A stretch of DNA of 11,559 nucleotides from a virus (lineage: Duplodnaviria; Heunggongvirae; Uroviricota; Caudoviricetes), in IMG/VR virus record IMGVR_UViG_2877958089_000001; one strand, given 5' to 3'. Position numbers and translations under genes: made by a program. This document shows, piece after piece, positions 1 to 11,559 of the stretch (its first letter is position 1; every line of letters starts with the position of its first letter). The notes beneath the pieces were generated by a model. It worked only from the letters and a program-made list of their open reading frames with translations, was not told the DNA's origin and ran no database searches.

Positions 1-1164
1 TTACGCCTTCTTTATATCCTCCATAATTCCACAGTGGGACATATTTGGGACATTATCACCAAAAATGTCGTCTATTTTCCTTGCATGCTCTGTCAAATGA
101 TTAGGCGCAAGGTGAGCATACCTACGAACCATTTCTATGGACTCCCATCCGCCCATTTCCTGAAGCACAGATAATGGGACGCCTGACTGGATCAGCCAGC
201 TTGCCCAGGTGTGTCTGAGGTCATGGAAACGGAAATCTTCAATTCCTGCACGACGACAAGCTGATAGCCATGATGTCTTGCTGTCGATGCGCATCTTCCT
301 GACCGCAGGCGTTGATGTTCCATCTGCTCGCTTAGCCGCCTTGGTATGTACAAACACCCATTTGTGATGCTTGCCTATTTGATCACGCAACACTTTACAG
401 GCGGTATCGTTCAGCGCCACACCAATGGCGCGGTTTGATTTGCTCTCTTCTGGATTCACCCAGGCAACTCGTCGCTGCATGTCGATTTGTTGCCATTCCA
501 GATTTATGATGTTCGACTTTCTCAGACCAGTTGCCAGCGCAAACTTGACGACAGATTTCAGTGGTTCGGGGCACTCATCAATAAGGCGTTTTGCTTCCTC
601 CTTTTCCAGCCATCTGACTCGCTTGTTTCTGACCGCTGGTATCTTGATGACAGGCGCTTTTTCCAGCCACTTCCAGTCGCGTTCTGCAGCACGGAGAATG
701 GCCTTTATCATGGCAAGATGCTTTGCCTTTGTCTGAGTTGATACTGGCTTTGGTTCATAAACAGGCGGTTCTTTACCTTTCCTGATGGCGGCCTGAACTT
801 TCTGTTTCCATATTTCTTTCGTCTTTCTGTTATGCATTCTGCTTACAGCAGAGTAAATCTTTGCCTCCGAGATATCTTTAAGCCTTATACCCTCAAAATG
901 TTCAAGCCAGAACTCAATCCGGCTTTTATCTGAATCGAGAGATTTTTTATCAGCTTTTTCCTCAAGCCATCTTAGGCAGGCCTCTTCAAAAGTGACATCA
1001 GGTAAATCCCCTAGCTTTTCTACTCGCCAGAGTTCTGCTTTTCGCTTGTCGTGCAACTCCTGAGCTTGCCGCTTGTCCTTTGTGCCAAGAGATTCCTTAA
1101 TTCGTTTCCCGCCCGGGAGCGAATACGAGGCATACCATATTTCATTTCTGCGGAAGAGTGACAT
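1..1164 (-). CDS. intD: Phage integrase, tyrosine recombinase family (DLP12 IntD-like), 387 aa
   Basis: Full-length minus-strand ORF. C-terminal catalytic region with the tyrosine-recombinase signatures ([10 protein letters not shown] box and MVRRYAHL with the catalytic Tyr). ATG at 1164 is preceded on the coding strand by a GAGGAAAG Shine-Dalgarno. Sequence recognised from memory as the DLP12-type integrase. Confidence 0.93.
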
Positions 1165-1391
1165 TTTCTTTCCTCTGTTATGCCATCACCCGCGCTCACC
1201 TGGACAGTATGCAGCGGAGACTGAAGCGCCGCAATGCAAGCTTGCCGTGTTGTGAGGTAAGGAGATTTTGGCTTGGTTGGATCTTTACGTGTTGCCTGTA
1301 GGCGGCCTGTTCGTATCCAGTTGGTGGCGGTTGGTCTGGATATCTTAAGAAACTGACAGGCCTCATCGAGTGTGAGGCTGTATGGCTCCAT
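1020..1391 (-). CDS. xisD: Excisionase / AlpA-family helix-turn-helix protein (Xis-like); ORF is unusually long and overlaps int by about 145 nt
   Basis: ATG at 1391 preceded by GAGGTGA; its start overlaps the stop of the upstream ORF as TAATG. N-terminal segment [28 protein letters not shown] is a typical AlpA/Xis HTH. The ORF continues to 1020 in a different frame from int. Confidence 0.6.
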
Positions 1392-1696
1392 TATTTCACC
1401 TCTTGCTGTGTCATTGTTGAAAAATGGATACCAGCTCGTTGCTGCCAGACGATCCAACCGAGAGTCATATCCCATGCCATGTATTCGTTATCGCCGTTTT
1501 TTACTCTCCGACGATCTACTAAGTCACCGAAACGCTTTTCCATGAATAATTCATAGGCTTCGCGTTCATCTGGCTCTACTTCCAGAGATACGAGTGCGAT
1601 TTCATAAGCACGGCGCTCAATATCGTCTCGAACCTCTAGGCTGCTGATTCGTTCTTTGATTTCTTTAATCAGTTCTTTATTGGTAAATGTGGTCAT
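1391..1696 (-). CDS. Hypothetical small acidic protein (101 aa), early-left accessory region
   Basis: Minus-strand ORF whose start (rc ATG at 1694-1696) overlaps the stop of the upstream gene as TAATG and whose stop overlaps the xis start as TAATG. Glu/Asp-rich, predicted helical. No family recognised. Confidence 0.45.
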   Translation of the reverse strand: MTTFTNKELIKEIKERISSLEVRDDIERRAYEIALVSLEVEPDEREAYELFMEKRFGDLVDRRRVKNGDNEYMAWDMTLGWIVWQQRAGIHFSTMTQQEVK

Positions 1697-1815: not shown

Positions 1816-1915
1816 NNNNNNNNNNNNNNNNNNNNNNNNNNNNNNNNNNNNNNNNNNNNNNNNNNNNNNNNNNNNNNNNNNNNNNNNNNNNNNNNNNNNN
1901 NNNNNNNNNNNNNNN
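1816..1915. other. Run of 100 N (assembly gap or masked segment of unknown true length)
   Basis: Directly visible in the sequence. Confidence 0.99.
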
Positions 1916-2109
1916 GGGTGCCTCCCGGTGCCTGGCGAAGGTTGCACACCAGGCGGGTGGGTATCCACAGAAGGTCGACTGTCAGCCTCAACCTTAACCC
2001 GCGTGCGCTGAGCCGCATTCACCACAACGCTAAGGATTCTCTCTGGTTGAAAATACTTAGCTGTTATGTGCCTGCTTTTAGCCACATCAGGCGAGGTGGA
2101 CCTGGTTAT

Positions 2110-2155
2110 TCCCCAACAACAAGGATTCGGTTAATCTGGATATCCCCAACAACAA
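2110..2155 (+). repeat. Two exact 13-bp direct repeats TCCCCAACAACAA (2110-2122 and 2143-2155), 33 bp centre to centre
   Basis: Read directly from the sequence; sits 15-60 bp upstream of the GTG start of the coiled-coil/zinc-ribbon ORF. Confidence 0.8.
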
Positions 2156-2169
2156 TAAGAGTATTCAAT

Positions 2170-2685
2170 GTGATCGCTGAATTAACGGCAGCAATGACGG
2201 CTATTCGTGAAACAGCCCAGATTGCAAAACTAATGAACGAGGCAAAAACTCAAGCTGAAGTAAATGCGGCTATTGGTGAGCTGAACTCAAAGCTTGCGTC
2301 TATTCAGCGCGAATGCGTGTCTCTCGTTGAACTGGTGGGCTCTTATCAAGAAATAAATGCTTCTCTCAAAGCTAAAATTGCAGAATTCGAAAACTTTGAG
2401 GCTCAGACGGAAGGCTATATCCTTAACCAACTTGAGTCGGGTACTTTTGTATACTCGAAGGAGGTAATCGTGAACGGTGGCAGCATAACCATGCATCTTT
2501 GCCCAAAATGTTTTGGACAAAAGATAGTATCGATACTTCAACCATTCCCGGTTAGCGAAGATGAGCTTTTTCATAAAAGCAGGTGCCTCCACTGTGAAAA
2601 TAAGTTTCTGATGAATAAAAATCCGGATTACGTATCGCCTCCATCCATTGAGGAGTTGTCCAGAAAACTTAACGGCAATCTGTAG
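2170..2685 (+). CDS. Hypothetical protein, N-terminal coiled coil plus C-terminal CxxC...CxxC zinc ribbon (about 171 aa from GTG 2170; alternative ATG at 2194)
   Basis: Long open frame with AGAG purine tract upstream of GTG 2170. Heptad-like helical N-terminus (AELTAAMTAIRETAQIAKLMNEAKTQAEVNAAIGELNSKLASIQ...), then CPKC, about 24 residues, CLHC. GC content is visibly lower than the flanking phage genes. The frame is also open upstream into the N-run, so the true start is uncertain. Confidence 0.55.
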   Translation: MIAELTAAMTAIRETAQIAKLMNEAKTQAEVNAAIGELNSKLASIQRECVSLVELVGSYQEINASLKAKIAEFENFEAQTEGYILNQLESGTFVYSKEVIVNGGSITMHLCPKCFGQKIVSILQPFPVSEDELFHKSRCLHCENKFLMNKNPDYVSPPSIEELSRKLNGNL

Positions 2686-2810
2686 ATTACTACTGTTGTG
2701 GATACCGTGGCATTTGAAGAGAAGTATGGCTCCCAGCTGGAGCTGATATTTCGTTTTATCGATCGCGCACTGGCGATTGGTGTGCTGGCCTGATTTTGTG
2801 GAGAAAGTTA

Positions 2811-3383: not shown

Positions 3384-4481
3384 TTAGAACTGGTAAACCA
3401 GACCTACAGCAACGATGTCATCAGTGCTTACACCGAGTGCTTTAGTGAAGTCATTTTTGTCAAGCAGGTTGATTTTGTAATCAACGAAAGTAGACATATT
3501 TTTGTTGAAGTAATAGGTTGCACCTACATCAACATATTTGACTAAGTCCTGATCGCCCCATACTCCAAGATCCTTACCTTTAGATTGCAGGTAAGCAACG
3601 GACGGACGCAGACCGAAATCGAACTGATATTGTGCAACAGCTTCGAAGTTTTGAGCTTTATTAGCAACGAAGTGATCAGCAAATACAGTCATATTCTGGG
3701 TTTCAGAATAGGTAGTGGCCAGGTAAATGTTGTTAGCGTCATATTTCAGACCTGCGGCCCAAACTTCTGCATTTTTACCGGAAGCAAATACTTCAGGAAG
3801 AACTTTCCCTGCATTAACTTGAGTGTCGGTACGATCAGATTTCGCATAAGTTGCACCGATACCGAATCCTTCGTATTCATAGGTAGCAGAGAAACCGAAG
3901 CCATCACCGTTACCTTCGGTGTAGTTATCGAAATCGCTACGATCGTTTTTGCCTTGGTACTGAGCAGCAAAGTTCAGACCATCAACCAGACCAAAGAAGT
4001 CGTTGTTACGATAGGTTGCAACACCAGTGGTGCGACCAGTCATGAACACATCTGTTTGGGTCCAGGTATCGCCACCGAATTCTGGCAGAACGTCAGTCCA
4101 CGCACCGATGTCGTATGCTACACCGTAGTTACGGCCGTAATCGATTGAGCCGTAGTCACCGAATTTCAGGCCTGCAAATGCAAGACGGGTTTTGTCTTTG
4201 GAGGAACCTTGAGATTCAGCGCGGTTGCCTTTGAATTCATATTCCCACTGACCGAAACCAGTCAGCTGATCGTTGATTTGGGTTTCGCCTTTGAAGCCCA
4301 GACGAACATAAGTAGTATCACCATCATCTGCATCGTTAGAGGAAAAGTAGTGCTTGGCATTAACTTTCCCGTACAGATCCAGCTTGTTACTGTCTTTATT
4401 ATAAATTTCAGCTGCCTGAGCAGACATCGCCATCAGTACTGATGCAGCTACAGCAGAAATTGCCACTGTTAATTTTTTCAT
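3384..4481 (-). CDS. nmpC: Outer-membrane general porin, OmpC/OmpF family (prophage-encoded NmpC / Lc-like), intact 365 aa
   Basis: Signal peptide [23 protein letters not shown] followed by AEIYNKD; porin-like Gly/Tyr/Asp-rich beta-strand pattern; C-terminal ...GLVYQF with terminal Phe. Recognised from memory as the DLP12 / PA-2 phage porin. Confidence 0.93.
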
Positions 4482-4959
4482 CGTGAGCCCTTTTTTTTGA
4501 ACTATTATTAAAAAATGATGTCACTGCGCGATAAATATTCATCTAATCAATGTGATTATTTCAAGATGTAAGTTTTAGTTTCTCATTTAATTTGTGAAGT
4601 AGATCTCTATTTTTATCTGAACTTTTTCTATCGAAACCTATTTATGGCTCTTATTTGAACAAAAATAAATCTATTAGCTAATTTATATTAATGGCTGTTA
4701 TTTATGGTGGTTCTATAATTCGTCTGTTTAATTTAAACCGGCTAAAAATAACACTGGAAATTATTTATTGGTTATTTGTTGAGGTTTTCTTATGTATTTG
4801 TGGTGATGTTTTGAACACTCGGTAGCATTCTCATAAATATCATTCAGTGGTTTACGTACGTAAAAAATTGGTTATGCTGTTAAGAGTGGTTACTTCGTCA
4901 CACAGCTTAAACCCGCCGTCGAGCTGGTTTTTCCATTTTTTGAGTCTCGATATTAGCTG

Positions 4960-5016
4960 ATAACTCAATACCTGAGTTATTCACTGACTCGGAGTCAGTT
5001 ACGTTTCTGCTTTTTT
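4960..5016 (+). promoter_or_regulatory. Two adjacent palindromes (ATAACTCA-n5-TGAGTTAT at 4960-4980; ACTGACTC-G-GAGTCAGT at 4983-4999) followed by a T-rich tract, about 70 bp upstream of the holin
   Basis: Read directly from the sequence; function (terminator-like structure in the late leader or operator) is inferred. Confidence 0.35.
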
Positions 5017-5069
5017 GCGATACGTTGTATTCCCTCAATTTACACCCGCTTTGTCTGCGAGGTGGGGTT

Positions 5070-11025: not shown

Positions 11026-11559
11026 CTGGCCGGAACTAATGAATTTATTGGTGAAGGTGATGCATATATTCCGCCTCATACAGGTCTGCCAGCAAACAGT
11101 ACCGATATTGCACCACCAGATATTCCTGCTGGCTTTGTGGCTGTTTTCAACAGTGATGAGGCATCGTGGCATCTCGTTGAAGATCATCGGGGTAAAACGG
11201 TTTATGACGTGGCTTCCGGCGACGCGTTATTTATTTCTGAACTCGGCTCATTACCGGAAAATGTCACCTGGTTATCCCCGGAAGGGGAGTTTCAGAAGTG
11301 GAACGGCACAGCTTGGGTGAAGGATACGGAAGCAGAAAAACTGTTCCGGATCCGTGAGGCGGAAGAAACAAAAAACAGCCTGATGCAGGTAGCCAGTGAG
11401 CATATAGCGCCGCTTCAGGATGCTGTGGATCTGGAGATCGCAACGGAGGAAGAAACCTTGTTGCTGGAAGCCTGGAAAAAGTATCGGGTGTTGCTGAACC
11501 GTGTTGATACATCAACTGCACCTGATATTGAGTGGCCTACGAACCCTGTCAGGGAGTAA
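11026..11559 (+). pseudogene. tfaD: Tail fibre assembly protein (Tfa) lacking its own N-terminus and start codon; C-terminus complete (stop at 11557-11559)
   Basis: Frame-1 translation [50 protein letters not shown] ... [21 protein letters not shown] matches lambdoid Tfa; no ATG/GTG/TTG in frame between the upstream stop (10942) and GTG 11137. Confidence 0.75.

What the first reader, a model, noticed from the sequence alone, without database searches (positions are those of the whole stretch)
2110..2155. Pair of exact 13-bp direct repeats spaced three helical turns apart upstream of the zinc-ribbon ORF
TCCCCAACAACAA occurs twice (2110-2122, 2143-2155), 33 bp apart, ending 15 bp before the GTG of the ORF. 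Exact direct repeats with helical-phase spacing directly upstream of a start codon are typical of cooperative regulator-binding sites (iteron-like or operator-like), suggesting that this accessory gene is under specific control rather than simply read through from the early operon.
Basis: seen in the sequence. Interest (0 to 1): 0.4.

Follow-up and report, generated by a model that had tools for sequence, protein, structure and literature searches.

The report
Conserved leader block before swappable prophage gene
The two 13-base repeats are real and non-coding, but they are two copies of a motif inside a ~90-base block, conserved in prophages of many enterobacteria, that marks the left edge of a slot holding different accessory genes antisense to the phage's early-left operon and probably works as folded RNA rather than as a repressor-binding site.

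Summary
TCCCCAACAACAA occurs exactly twice (2110-2122, 2143-2155), 33 bp apart, and such a repeat is rare by chance (0.7% of simulated windows). It is non-coding: homologues have in-frame stops, and unrelated genes follow the same block.

The repeats are not a free-standing operator pair. They are the cores of a ~21-bp unit inside a ~90-bp block (about 2064-2155). This block stays ~90% identical in lambdoid prophages of at least 13 enterobacterial genera, while both flanks and the downstream gene are swapped.

In intact relatives (PhiR29_1, SfIV) the rightward cargo gene lies antisense inside the predicted pL transcription unit.
- Copy 1 is one strand plus the loop of a covariation-supported hairpin. 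Its pairs read 98.9% standard on the minus strand against 91.0% on the plus strand.
- Copy 2 belongs to the left arm of an inverted repeat. The right arm follows an rrn-type boxA, so the two arms bracket the cargo.

My best reading (confidence about 0.4) is RNA architecture of the leftward leader and of the cargo mRNA 5' end. A DNA operator role is not excluded, but no promoter, partner protein or further sites were found. In this window the right arm, boxA and pL have been deleted, so the element is partly orphaned.

The parts
2110..2122 (+). Repeat copy 1 (R1), TCCCCAACAACAA. On the minus-strand RNA it reads UUGUUGUUGGGGA, forming the 5' arm plus GGGG loop of hairpin P3.
2143..2155 (+). Repeat copy 2 (R2), TCCCCAACAACAA. 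It is the inner part of the left arm of the cargo-bracketing inverted repeat and lies 14 nt upstream of the GTG. Conservation across cargo types ends at 2153.
2064..2155 (.). Conserved ~90-bp non-coding block: P1, P2, the P3/R1 hairpin, a spacer with invariant TAAT, the left inverted-repeat arm and R2. The covariance model matches 2064-2137 on the - strand at 96.8 bits; this is by construction, since the model's seed includes the identical L001 copy. It is the only copy in the window.
2070..2092 (.). Helix P1: GCCTG (2070-2074) pairs with CAGGC (2088-2092). A compensatory GCCUU/AAGGC change occurs in L041.
2082..2099 (.). Helix P2: CCAC (2082-2085) pairs with GTGG (2096-2099). It is interleaved with P1 (pseudoknot topology). 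A compensatory CCGC/GCGG change occurs in L041.
2101..2124 (-). Hairpin P3. On the + strand it reads CCTGGTTATT-CCCC-AACAACAAGG; on the - strand 5'-CCUUGUUGUU-GGGG-AAUAACCAGG-3'. In most genera the lower stem extends to about 2097-2128.
2130..2135 (+). -10-like hexamer GTTAAT between the repeats. TAAT is invariant; some relatives have TATAAT or TATTAT. There is no -35, and its status as a promoter is unproven.
2133..2145 (+). Left arm core of the inverted repeat, AATCTGGATATCC. In intact relatives its exact inverted copy lies just after the cargo stop codon, next to boxA.
2693..2704 (+). Remnant of the right inverted-repeat arm (CTGTTGTGGATA). Homology to intact phages breaks at 2704/2705, where a deletion joins the cargo to a DUF968 remnant and quuD. 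boxA, the terminator, pL and cI are missing from this window.
2157..2161 (+). Shine-Dalgarno-like AAGAG of the zinc-ribbon ORF. The GAG and the GTG start are conserved in diverged homologues.
2170..2685 (+). Cargo gene: a coiled-coil plus zinc-ribbon protein of 171 aa (WP_000559922.1; phrog_1244). Its function is unknown.
1916..2058 (-). 5' part of an STnc100-like sRNA gene, divergent from the cargo and cut by the N run at 1816-1915. The full-length match is in L002 4363-4140.

Best explanation
What is there (shown). The two 13-mers are the cores of a duplicated ~21-bp unit inside a ~90-bp non-coding block. In lambdoid prophages of Escherichia, Shigella, Enterobacter, Citrobacter, Kosakonia, Kluyvera, Buttiauxella, Serratia, Sodalis, Rahnella and others, this block always lies immediately upstream of a rightward accessory ('cargo') gene that differs from phage to phage. 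It also lies immediately 'downstream', in the leftward sense, of that cargo.

In intact relatives the order is: cI(-), cI terminator, predicted pL/oL pointing left, a hairpin that terminates the + strand cargo mRNA, an rrn-type boxA on the - strand, the right arm of an inverted repeat, the cargo gene(+), the left arm of the inverted repeat including R2, a spacer, the R1 hairpin, two interleaved helices, and then an STnc100-like sRNA or the first leftward gene. The cargo is therefore embedded antisense in the pL unit.

How it most likely works (inferred). The block acts as RNA in the leftward (pL) transcript.
- R1, read as UUGUUGUUGGGGA, forms a local hairpin with AAUA(A/G)C(C)AGG.
- R2 and the sequence just 3' of it on that RNA (...UUGUUGUUGGGGAUAUCCAGAUU) pair with the segment that directly follows boxA (AAUCUGGAUAUCCACAACAG...).
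- This gives a 13-25-bp long-range helix that closes off the untranslated antisense-cargo RNA.
- By analogy with rrn leaders, the boxA/Nus complex would let RNA polymerase cross this untranslated stretch. The helix would fold it out, perhaps for RNase III processing, so that the downstream leader and genes are expressed.

On the other strand, geometry places R2 in or at the start of the cargo mRNA's 5' UTR, because the start codon is only 12-22 nt downstream in every cassette. The same inverted repeat can pair the cargo mRNA's 5' and 3' ends.

In this particular window pL, boxA and most of the right arm have been deleted, so only the cargo-proximal functions can still operate.
For: Non-coding status:
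- Zn-ribbon homologues carry an in-frame TGA between R2 and the GTG (L031/L107/L112, L058 and others).
- PGAP starts the gene at 2170.
- The PHROG profile aligns from residue 5 of the short form.
- At least four unrelated cargo families, each with its own SD and start codon, follow the same block.

Conservation:
- The block is present in 20 species representatives of about 13 genera while both flanks differ.
- It stays about 90% identical where the adjacent CDS is only 59-65% identical.
- 78 of 79 protein-anchored loci carry the full block.

Structure:
- For the three helices (20 pairs), 4-6 pairs show double changes, 0 of 500 shuffles reach the observed values, and slid controls pair at 47% or less.
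- The same pairs are 91.0% standard on the + strand but 98.9% (892 of 902 cells) on the - strand.
- Mean hairpin energy is -9.75 kcal/mol on the - strand against -5.8 on the + strand.

Inverted repeat:
- The exact 13-bp core occurs only at the two cargo ends in a 46-kb genome.
- The arms change together in three cassette types: GTAACCCTC, GGATGACT and AATCTT.
- A closing helix appears in the MFE and centroid of the 686-nt minus-strand RNA, and in the MFE of 14 of 14 cassette types on the - strand and 12 of 14 on the + strand.

Context:
- pL is predicted as TTGACA-16-CATAAT pointing left, and no minus-strand terminator is predicted before the block.
- GCTCTTTAACAA occurs once in the genome, in the pL leader, and equals the rrn boxA-spacer ugcucuuuaacaau (PMC2724277).
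Against: - No transcript ends were measured. pL read-through across the cargo, the helices and any RNase III or Nus involvement are all predictions.
- The block on its own is not more stable than shuffled sequence (z = +1.6 and +0.6).
- The structure was derived from these same sequences, and most covariation comes from a few lineages (L041/L230/L206, the L091 type, Trabulsiella).
- Beyond the 13-bp core, the inverted-repeat extension shows no excess of wobble-preserving transitions (ts:tv 69:93).
- R1 and R2 are almost invariant while their pairing partners vary. This suggests sequence-specific recognition, by a protein or another RNA, that a plain helix model does not explain.
- A plus-strand G.U that is conserved near the base of P3 is an A.C mismatch on the minus strand.
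- The strand asymmetry rests mainly on two columns.
- The block also exists where a translated leftward gene starts only about 20 nt away, so looping out the cargo cannot be its only role.
Confidence: 0.4

Rival explanations
1. DNA operator pair. A host or phage DNA-binding protein binds the two direct repeats on the same face of the helix. It represses or activates a weak, -35-less cargo promoter whose -10 is the GTTAAT/TATAAT hexamer lying between them.
For: - R1 and R2 are nearly invariant even where their putative RNA partners vary.
- TAAT between the repeats is invariant, and the hexamer is a perfect TATAAT or TATTAT in several independent variants.
- With that -10, the repeats would cover about -32 to -20 and +1 to +13, a repressor-like layout (read from the sequence).
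- Spacing is 33 bp in most loci. In two lineages a +1 insertion is accompanied by a -1 deletion that restores 33 bp.
Against: - No consensus sigma-70 promoter is found in any variant, including those with TATAAT. Most sequences have T at the critical -11 position.
- There is no other copy of the motif in a 46-kb phage genome or in the window, so nothing resembles a regulon.
- No conserved regulator travels with the block, and the immunity repressors differ between carriers.
- Variants with 34 bp (L016 type) and 35 bp (D' type) spacing exist.
- R2 is absent in L158-type cassettes, and R1 is absent before the second gene of L367.
- The A.C to G.U asymmetry points to RNA.
Confidence: 0.2
2. Plus-strand mRNA leader element. 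The C/A-rich, unstructured motif (CCCC-AAC-AAC-AAN...) is a 5'-UTR module of the cargo mRNA. It would act as a translational enhancer or ribosome standby site, or as a binding site for Hfq ((ARN)n triplets) or an sRNA, present once before the SD (R2) and once in a hairpin loop (R1).
For: - R2 always ends 12-22 nt before the start codon of at least 10 different cassette variants (at least four unrelated cargo families), with the SD in between.
- In SfIV-type cassettes the inverted copy (TCCCCATCAACAAG) precedes the SD and ATG of a minus-strand gene at a similar distance.
- In the tandem locus L367 the second gene copy keeps the ...TAATCTGAATGTCCCCAACAC unit.
- R2 in the window reads as five consecutive A-R-N triplets overlapping the SD (read from the sequence; the Hfq distal-face preference is established knowledge, not tested here).
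- An Hfq-class sRNA gene (STnc100-like) is the divergent neighbour, and a partial copy of the motif at 2022-2039 is complementary to it.
Against: - The transcription start site is unknown, and no promoter upstream of the block is conserved.
- R1 is not followed by an ORF.
- The wobble asymmetry favours the opposite strand for the R1 hairpin.
- No binding data exist.
- The block is present in genomes that lack the STnc100-like neighbour.
Confidence: 0.2
3. Module-boundary ('linker') sequence or recombination scar. The motif is simply the short conserved homology at which cargo cassettes are exchanged. The tandem copy arose by unequal exchange and has no function of its own.
For: - Mosaic junctions fall exactly at the motif. 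Window and SfIV-type sequences diverge after CCCCAACAAC (about 2153), and the SfV type diverges just before R1 (about 2099).
- The window's own deletion endpoint lies inside the right arm.
- The unit is duplicated with an indel.
- Tandem cassettes exist.
Against: - Neutral scars would not remain about 90% identical across genera while the neighbouring CDS falls to about 60%.
- Nor would they show compensatory changes in three helices, or coordinated variants of the two inverted-repeat arms.
- This explanation is compatible with the others. It accounts for the repeats' origin, not their maintenance.
Confidence: 0.12
4. Coding repeat. The repeats lie in a longer ORF that starts at GTG 1957 (as annotated in PhiR29_1) and encode a repeated SPTT peptide.
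For: The frame is open in the window (ORF 1687-2685). The depositors of PV340556 annotated the long form, 4262-4990.
Against: - In-frame TGA stops lie between R2 and the GTG in many homologues.
- PGAP uses the start at 2170.
- phrog_1244 begins at the short form.
- The same upstream block precedes unrelated genes.
- The upstream part overlaps an STnc100-like sRNA on the other strand.
Confidence: 0.01

Closest known systems
rrn operon leaders (boxA antitermination complex plus long-range RNase III processing stems flanking 16S rRNA)
   Same: In intact relatives the minus strand carries GCUCUUUAACAAU, identical to the rrn boxA-spacer (PMC2724277). It is preceded by a hairpin and followed directly by the 5' strand of a predicted helix whose 3' strand lies 0.5-0.9 kb downstream. 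The enclosed RNA is untranslated.
   Different: The enclosed RNA is the antisense of a protein gene, not a structural RNA. Nus dependence and RNase III cleavage are untested. The helix core is only 13 bp. In the window itself, boxA and most of the right arm are deleted.
Lambda nutL / N-leader (boxA-boxB followed by an RNase III-sensitive stem before the first pL gene)
   Same: The position matches: just downstream of pL and before the first leftward gene. There is a boxA and structured leader RNA.
   Different: The hairpin precedes boxA, which is the rrn order. No boxB-like GNRA hairpin or N homologue was identified. There is no second boxA in the pR operon. A whole antisense gene is inserted in the leader.
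Variable accessory/defence slot next to the lambdoid repressor (rexAB, bstA; 'hotspot of mosaic diversity' between cI and N)
   Same: It is the same genomic position, and the cargo is swappable with its own terminator (PMC8585504).
   Different: Here the cargo faces the opposite way to cI and pL. It is bracketed by an inverted repeat and preceded by a deeply conserved block. The cargo functions are unknown, with no PADLOC or Pfam assignment.
aba element of BstA (63-bp DNA element with terminal direct repeats spanning the start of the accessory gene)
   Same: Short direct repeats flank the translation-initiation region of a repressor-adjacent accessory gene, and function resides in non-coding nucleic acid (PMC8585504).
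   Different: aba is specific to its cognate BstA and overlaps the coding sequence. The present block is constant across unrelated cargo genes and ends before the SD. There is no sequence similarity in the repeats.
Operators / iterons (direct-repeat protein-binding sites)
   Same: Two identical direct repeats about three helical turns apart, next to a gene start.
   Different: No promoter, partner protein or further copies were found. Spacing variants exist, and the substitution pattern is RNA-like.
HK022 put-type cis-acting antiterminator RNAs
   Same: A conserved structured RNA downstream of pL, upstream of a strong terminator (that of the STnc100-like sRNA), in phages with no obvious N.
   Different: There is no second (putR-like) copy in the genome by covariance-model search. 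Similarity to put was recalled from memory and could not be tested.

Membership tests
Direct-repeat operator / iteron | Two or more same-orientation copies with helical phasing | tested here: met
   Two exact copies 33 bp apart. However, 34-bp and 35-bp variants occur in relatives.
Direct-repeat operator / iteron | Overlap with a recognisable promoter or origin | tested here: inconclusive
   No sigma-70 consensus match in the window or in the TATAAT variants. Only an invariant TAAT lies between the copies.
Direct-repeat operator / iteron | Cognate binding protein encoded with the sites, or further sites elsewhere in the replicon | tested here: not met
   The motif occurs only at R1 and R2 in a 46-kb phage. 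Carriers have unrelated repressors. Binding itself is not testable here.
Coding tandem repeat | Reading frame through the repeats conserved in homologues | tested here: not met
   In-frame stops in homologues, PGAP and PHROG starts at 2170, and unrelated downstream genes.
Structured cis-acting RNA (leader) | Helices supported by compensatory changes and exceeding controls | tested here: met
   20 pairs, of which 4-6 show double changes. None of 500 shuffles reach the observed values, and slid controls pair at 47% or less. 98.9% of cells are standard pairs on the - strand. Caveat: the structure was derived from the same sequences.
Structured cis-acting RNA (leader) | Thermodynamic stability above background | tested here: not met
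   Block alone gives z = +1.63 (- strand) and +0.62 (+ strand).
Structured cis-acting RNA (leader) | The element is transcribed on the proposed strand | not testable with these tools
   Only a predicted pL and the absence of a predicted minus-strand terminator before the block.
rrn-type antitermination leader with long-range stem | boxA matching the rrn consensus | tested here: met
   GCTCTTTAACAA at L002/L290 5016-5027(-) against ugcucuuuaacaau. It is absent from the window because of the deletion at 2704/2705.
rrn-type antitermination leader with long-range stem | Complementary strands flanking the enclosed RNA, with the 5' strand next to boxA | tested here: met
   The 13-bp exact inverted repeat is unique in the genome. 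A helix is predicted in 14 of 14 cassette types. The arms vary in a coordinated way.
rrn-type antitermination leader with long-range stem | Nus-factor dependence and RNase III cleavage | not testable with these tools
   Needs genetics or biochemistry.
Lambda-type nut site | boxB hairpin downstream of boxA, an N protein, and a second nut in the pR operon | tested here: not met
   The hairpin lies upstream of boxA. There is a single boxA in the genome. No N is annotated, although N homology was not searched exhaustively.
Known Rfam family | Covariance-model match to the block | tested here: not met
   There is no hit on the block at gathering threshold or at E <= 5. Only STnc100 next to it and IS009 elsewhere were found.
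TIR-bounded mobile element (IS/MITE) | Terminal inverted repeats plus target-site duplication, a transposase, or multiple genomic copies | tested here: not met
   Inverted repeats are present. There is no consistent flanking duplication (by inspection), no extra copies, and always the same genomic slot.
Invertible DNA segment | Both orientations of the segment observed; recombinase nearby | tested here: not met
   All matches of the 33 cargo proteins tested were in + orientation relative to boxA across 164 loci, none inverted.
STnc100 sRNA (neighbouring element, not the repeats) | Full-length match to RF02076 with a terminator | tested here: inconclusive
   42.4 bits against a gathering score of 47, E = 6e-8, model positions 1-206, with a 3' hairpin and U run.

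The most novel reading that the evidence does not exclude
The block, the inverted repeat and the rrn-type boxA together form a 'cassette port'. This would be a conserved RNA device that lets lambdoid phages carry interchangeable accessory or defence genes antisense inside their early-left operon. A boxA-nucleated Nus complex would carry RNA polymerase across the untranslated antisense stretch. It would also hand the boxA-proximal strand to the R2 strand, folding out the cassette RNA (and perhaps excising it by RNase III), as happens for 16S rRNA. The R1 hairpin and pseudoknot would then restore a standard leader for the downstream sRNA or genes.
Probability: 0.2. Interest if true: 0.7.

Novelty: new variant of a known kind. 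Interest (0 to 1): 0.45.

Why it matters
The slot next to the prophage repressor is where lambdoid phages keep exclusion and defence genes such as rexAB and bstA. How such genes are exchanged and expressed without disturbing the early operon is poorly understood.

This block is about 90 nt of un-annotated sequence that is better conserved than any neighbouring gene, across at least 13 genera, with covariation-supported helices and a cargo-bracketing inverted repeat next to an rrn-type boxA. If it works as proposed, it would be a concrete and testable mechanism for that plug-and-play behaviour. It would also be a useful marker for finding new accessory genes.

For this window alone the result is more modest. 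The repeats are a partly orphaned piece of that element in a defective prophage.

Tried and rejected
- **Empty-site hypothesis** (cargo inserted into a perfect palindrome AATCTGGATATCCAGATT). Only 4 unrelated hits in IMG/VR. Rejected.
- **DNA inversion switch.** No cargo was found in the opposite orientation in 164 loci. No support.
- **Transposon-like cassette.** No consistent target duplication and no extra copies. Rejected.
- **Sigma-70 promoter in the block.** None found in the window, L134, L091 or L002.
- **Second, put/nut-like copy of the block or of boxA in the pR operon.** None found by pattern or by covariance model.
- **Wobble-selection test on the inverted-repeat extension.** ts:tv was 69:93, so there is no signal beyond the 13-bp core. 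The lower duplex energy on the minus strand is partly a composition effect.
- **Strict 33-bp phasing.** Weakened by the 34-bp and 35-bp variants.
- **Rfam.** Nothing matches the block.
- **E. coli K-12 as a source of experimental data.** Its CPS-53 prophage lacks the region.
- **Literature searches** for the motif, the protein accession and the phage names found nothing relevant.
- **Cargo function.** No significant Pfam or PADLOC assignment.
- **RNAalifold on the MAFFT alignment** recovered only P1, because of gap placement. The other helices were specified by hand and then counted.
Full report
**1. Observation**

The 13-mer TCCCCAACAACAA occurs exactly at 2110-2122 and 2143-2155 on the + strand, 33 bp apart. 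No other copy exists in the window even with two mismatches. It is the only exact direct repeat of at least 13 bp with short spacing in the window, and only 14 of 2000 Markov-simulated windows contain one.

The similarity extends upstream with one indel to a ~21-bp unit, CTGGTTATTCCCCAACAACAA and CTGGATA-TCCCCAACAACAA.

**2. Genomic context**

The window is a defective lambdoid prophage of E. coli:
- intD at 1-1164(-)
- yfdT at 1391-1696(-)
- a run of 100 N (1816-1915) standing for about 2.37 kb present in NZ_CP031105
- the zinc-ribbon ORF at 2170-2685(+), which is WP_000559922.1
- a DUF968 remnant, quuD, a porin gene, and the lysis genes

Intact phages carry the same 789 bp (PhiR29_1, PV340556). 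In them the zinc-ribbon gene lies on the + strand between yfdP(-) and cI(-).

In PhiR29_1 the sequence to the right of the gene contains, in order:
- a + strand terminator at 5029-5048
- GCTCTTTAACAA on the minus strand at 5016-5027
- a strong leftward promoter-like site, TTGACA-16-CATAAT, at 5165-5138, flanked by GTAC-type inverted repeats like those between cI and cro
- the cI terminator

No minus-strand terminator is predicted between this pL and the repeats. The cargo gene is therefore embedded antisense in the predicted early-left transcription unit. It cannot be 'read through from the early operon'.

The window loses homology to these phages at 2704/2705. A deletion has removed boxA, pL, cI and the replication region.

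**3. The repeats are not coding**

The upstream frame is open in the window, and the PhiR29_1 depositors annotated a long form starting at the equivalent of 1957. Four lines of evidence argue against that long form:
- Many homologues have an in-frame TGA between copy 2 and the conserved GTG, for example ...CCCCAACAAC TAG CTG AGT... read as TCC CCA ACA ACT AGC TGA.
- PGAP starts the gene at 2170.
- The phrog_1244 profile aligns from residue 5 of the short form.
- The same upstream sequence, including both copies, precedes unrelated genes, each with its own SD and start codon 12-22 nt after copy 2.

**4. A conserved block, not just two repeats**

I sampled related loci in five ways:
- a pattern holding both copies
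- an anchor 40 nt upstream that does not include them
- the right-hand boundary
- the cargo protein
- species-representative genomes

About 90 bp are conserved, with the consensus GCCTG-N-CCAC-N-CAGGC-N-GGTGG-ATCCTGCTATTCCCCAACAACAAGGATTCGGTTAATCTGGATATCCCCAACAAC. The block is found in Escherichia/Shigella, Enterobacter, Scandinavium, Trabulsiella, Buttiauxella, Atlantibacter, Kluyvera, Sodalis, Kosakonia, Serratia symbiotica, Pseudescherichia, Citrobacter and Rahnella. The sequences on both sides of it differ between these genera.

Where the adjacent zinc-ribbon CDS is only 59-65% identical, the block is still about 90% identical. Part of that figure is ascertainment, because my patterns fixed roughly 25 positions. 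In the protein-anchored sample, 78 of 79 loci have the complete block.

The block is independent of immunity type. E. coli phages carrying it have a 224-aa S24-type cI, while an Enterobacter prophage has a 143-aa XRE-type repressor.

Alternative arrangements exist after the upstream helices:
- the SfV type has no CCCCAACAAC at all
- L158-type cassettes have copy 1 only
- D' cassettes have a different spacer and 35-bp spacing
- L016-type loci have 34-bp spacing

These are documented.

**5. Structure around copy 1**

Three helices fit the alignment of 46 distinct sequences:
- P1: GCCUG/CAGGC
- P2: CCAC/GUGG, interleaved with P1 in a pseudoknot topology
- P3: a hairpin whose loop is CCCC on the + strand (GGGG on the - strand) and whose arms are ...CCTG(G/C)TTATT and AACAACAAGG...

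Copy 1 therefore forms the loop and one arm of P3.

| Measure | + strand | - strand alignment |
|---|---|---|
| Cells forming standard pairs | 91.0% | 96.4% |
| Pairs with changes on both sides | 4 | 6 |
| Shuffles reaching observed values | 0 of 500 | 0 of 500 |
| Best slid control | 43% or less | 47% or less |

Reading the same column pairs of the + strand alignment on the minus strand gives 98.9% standard pairs, 892 of 902 cells. The A.C and C.A oppositions of the + strand become G.U on the minus strand. Examples are column pair 54:63 in 45 of 46 sequences, pair 52:65 in 20 of 46, and others.

RNAfold gives a mean of -9.75 kcal/mol for the minus-strand hairpin against -5.8 for the plus strand.

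Several caveats apply:
- I derived the structure from these same sequences.
- Most double changes come from a few lineages.
- The asymmetry rests largely on two columns.
- The block alone is not more stable than shuffled sequence.
- No Rfam family matches the block.
- A covariance model built from it finds no second copy in a whole phage genome.

**6. Copy 2 and the inverted repeat**

AATCTGGATATCC (2133-2145), immediately before and overlapping copy 2, recurs as an exact inverted copy right after the cargo stop codon in intact phages. These are its only two exact occurrences in 46 kb. The right copy abuts the boxA sequence.

In cassette types where the left arm differs, the right arm differs in the same way:
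- GTAACCCTC in D' cassettes
- GGATGACT in L158-type cassettes
- AATCTT in L181

The right arm often continues as a degenerate inverted copy of CCCCAACAAC, but beyond the 13-bp core there is no excess of pair-preserving transitions (ts:tv 69:93).

Folding the 686-nt leftward RNA of PhiR29_1 gives a 25-bp helix between the boxA-proximal arm and the copy-2 arm, in both the MFE and the centroid structure. The + strand mRNA gives a 14-bp helix. A closing helix appears in 14 of 14 cassette types on the minus strand and 12 of 14 on the plus strand, although truncating the RNA near the arms favours this outcome.

The minus-strand GCUCUUUAACAAU equals the rrn boxA-spacer listed in PMC2724277 and occurs once in the phage. 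The same boxA plus AAUCUGG occurs in other phages directly upstream of translated leftward genes. It is therefore the generic pL leader of this phage group, and the cargo lies just after it.

**7. Interpretation**

The best-supported reading is that both 13-mers are strands of RNA helices in the leftward transcript. Copy 1 pairs locally. Copy 2 pairs at long range, closing off the untranslated antisense-cargo RNA behind an rrn-type boxA. This geometry resembles rrn leaders.

In addition, copy 2 must lie in or at the start of the cargo mRNA 5' UTR. This follows from geometry alone.

I give this reading about 0.4. The near-invariance of CCCCAACAAC, whatever its pairing partner looks like, is not explained by pairing alone. 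It leaves room for three other readings:
- a sequence-specific ligand on the + strand RNA, such as Hfq-type A-R-N triplets, an sRNA or ribosomal standby (about 0.2)
- a recombination-linker origin (about 0.12), which is compatible with all of the above

Coding is excluded for practical purposes.

**8. Comparison with known systems**

The position corresponds to the known mosaic or defence hotspot between cI and the first pL gene, which holds rexAB and bstA (PMC8585504). The aba element of BstA is a precedent for direct repeats around the start of such a gene. However, aba is cargo-specific and DNA-based, whereas this block is cargo-independent.

No GenBank phage record annotates the region, and literature searches for the motif found nothing.

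**9. Relevance to this window**

Only the left part of the system survives here: the block, the cargo gene, and 12 nt of the right arm at 2693-2704. This deleted form is common. 333 complete E. coli genomes cover at least 80% of the 885-bp query that spans the junction.

Noticed in passing
window 1916-2058 (-), continuing into the N run; L002 4363-4140 (-): An STnc100-like sRNA gene (RF02076; 42.4 bits against a gathering score of 47; E = 6e-8; full model length; own 3' hairpin and U run) lies divergent from the cargo, about 50 nt left of repeat 1. The STnc100 family is a multi-copy prophage sRNA. EDL933 expresses 11 copies during normal growth (PMC5331693), and the family is related to PasD (bioRxiv 10.64898/2026.05.13.724894).
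   Followed up: partly
window 1816-1915: A run of exactly 100 N replaces about 2.37 kb (part of the EaE-like gene, yfdR, yfdQ, yfdP and the 3' part of the sRNA region) that is present in the otherwise identical NZ_CP031105 locus. It is probably a scaffold gap or a mask.
   Followed up: partly
window 2704/2705: Deletion junction inside the right inverted-repeat arm. It fuses the cargo gene to a DUF968 remnant and quuD, and removes boxA, pL, cI, cro and the replication genes found in PhiR29_1. The same junction is present in 333 complete E. coli genomes.
   Followed up: partly
window 2022-2039: A third, partial copy of the motif (CCACAACGCTAAGGATTC, 78% identical to 2111-2128) lies inside the STnc100-like gene. 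The sRNA would therefore be partly complementary to the repeat-1 region of a + strand leader. This may be chance.
   Followed up: no
window 2067-2085 (- strand GTGGCTAAAAGCAGGCACA): A GG-N10-GC arrangement resembling a sigma-54 -24/-12 element is placed so that transcription would start at the first base of the STnc100 model. A Salmonella ChIP-exo paper reports RpoD and RpoN binding at STnc100 copies (PMC10794520). The spacing is one base longer in many relatives, which argues against it.
   Followed up: no
L367 about 1060-1520: Tandem cassettes: a degenerate block (TTCTCCAACTATC) precedes a truncated 78-aa coiled-coil homologue. A second, full-length zinc-ribbon gene follows, preceded only by ...GATTCGGCTAATCTGAATGTCCCCAACAC.
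   Followed up: partly
L040, L041, L104, L117, L034, L030, L166, L279, L288 (first ORF after the block): A third cargo type begins with a 26-37-codon ORF encoding a proline-rich peptide (for example MSYDYEERHMPPFKRPEPPPKPDDSD). The longer cassette behind it ends in PKPKPK-like tails. This may be a leader peptide or a frameshifted gene.
   Followed up: no
L002 4262-4990 (PV340556 annotation): The deposited CDS for the zinc-ribbon gene uses an upstream GTG and includes the non-coding block. It is probably mis-annotated by 71 codons relative to PGAP and the PHROG family.
   Followed up: yes
window 11318-11516 (+): Full-length match to Rfam IS009 (RF02111; 221.6 bits), a prophage-associated RNA family.
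   Followed up: no
L002 4030-4135: A long inverted repeat (ACAAAACAGAGAAGA ... TCTTCTCTGTTTTGT, about 50 nt apart) lies between the STnc100-like terminator and the yfdP start. This is another large predicted hairpin in the early-left leader. The corresponding window sequence is hidden by the N run.
   Followed up: no
L290 whole genome: The phage has a single boxA (pL side only) and no annotated N homologue. How early-left transcription passes the strong STnc100-like terminator is unexplained.
   Followed up: partly
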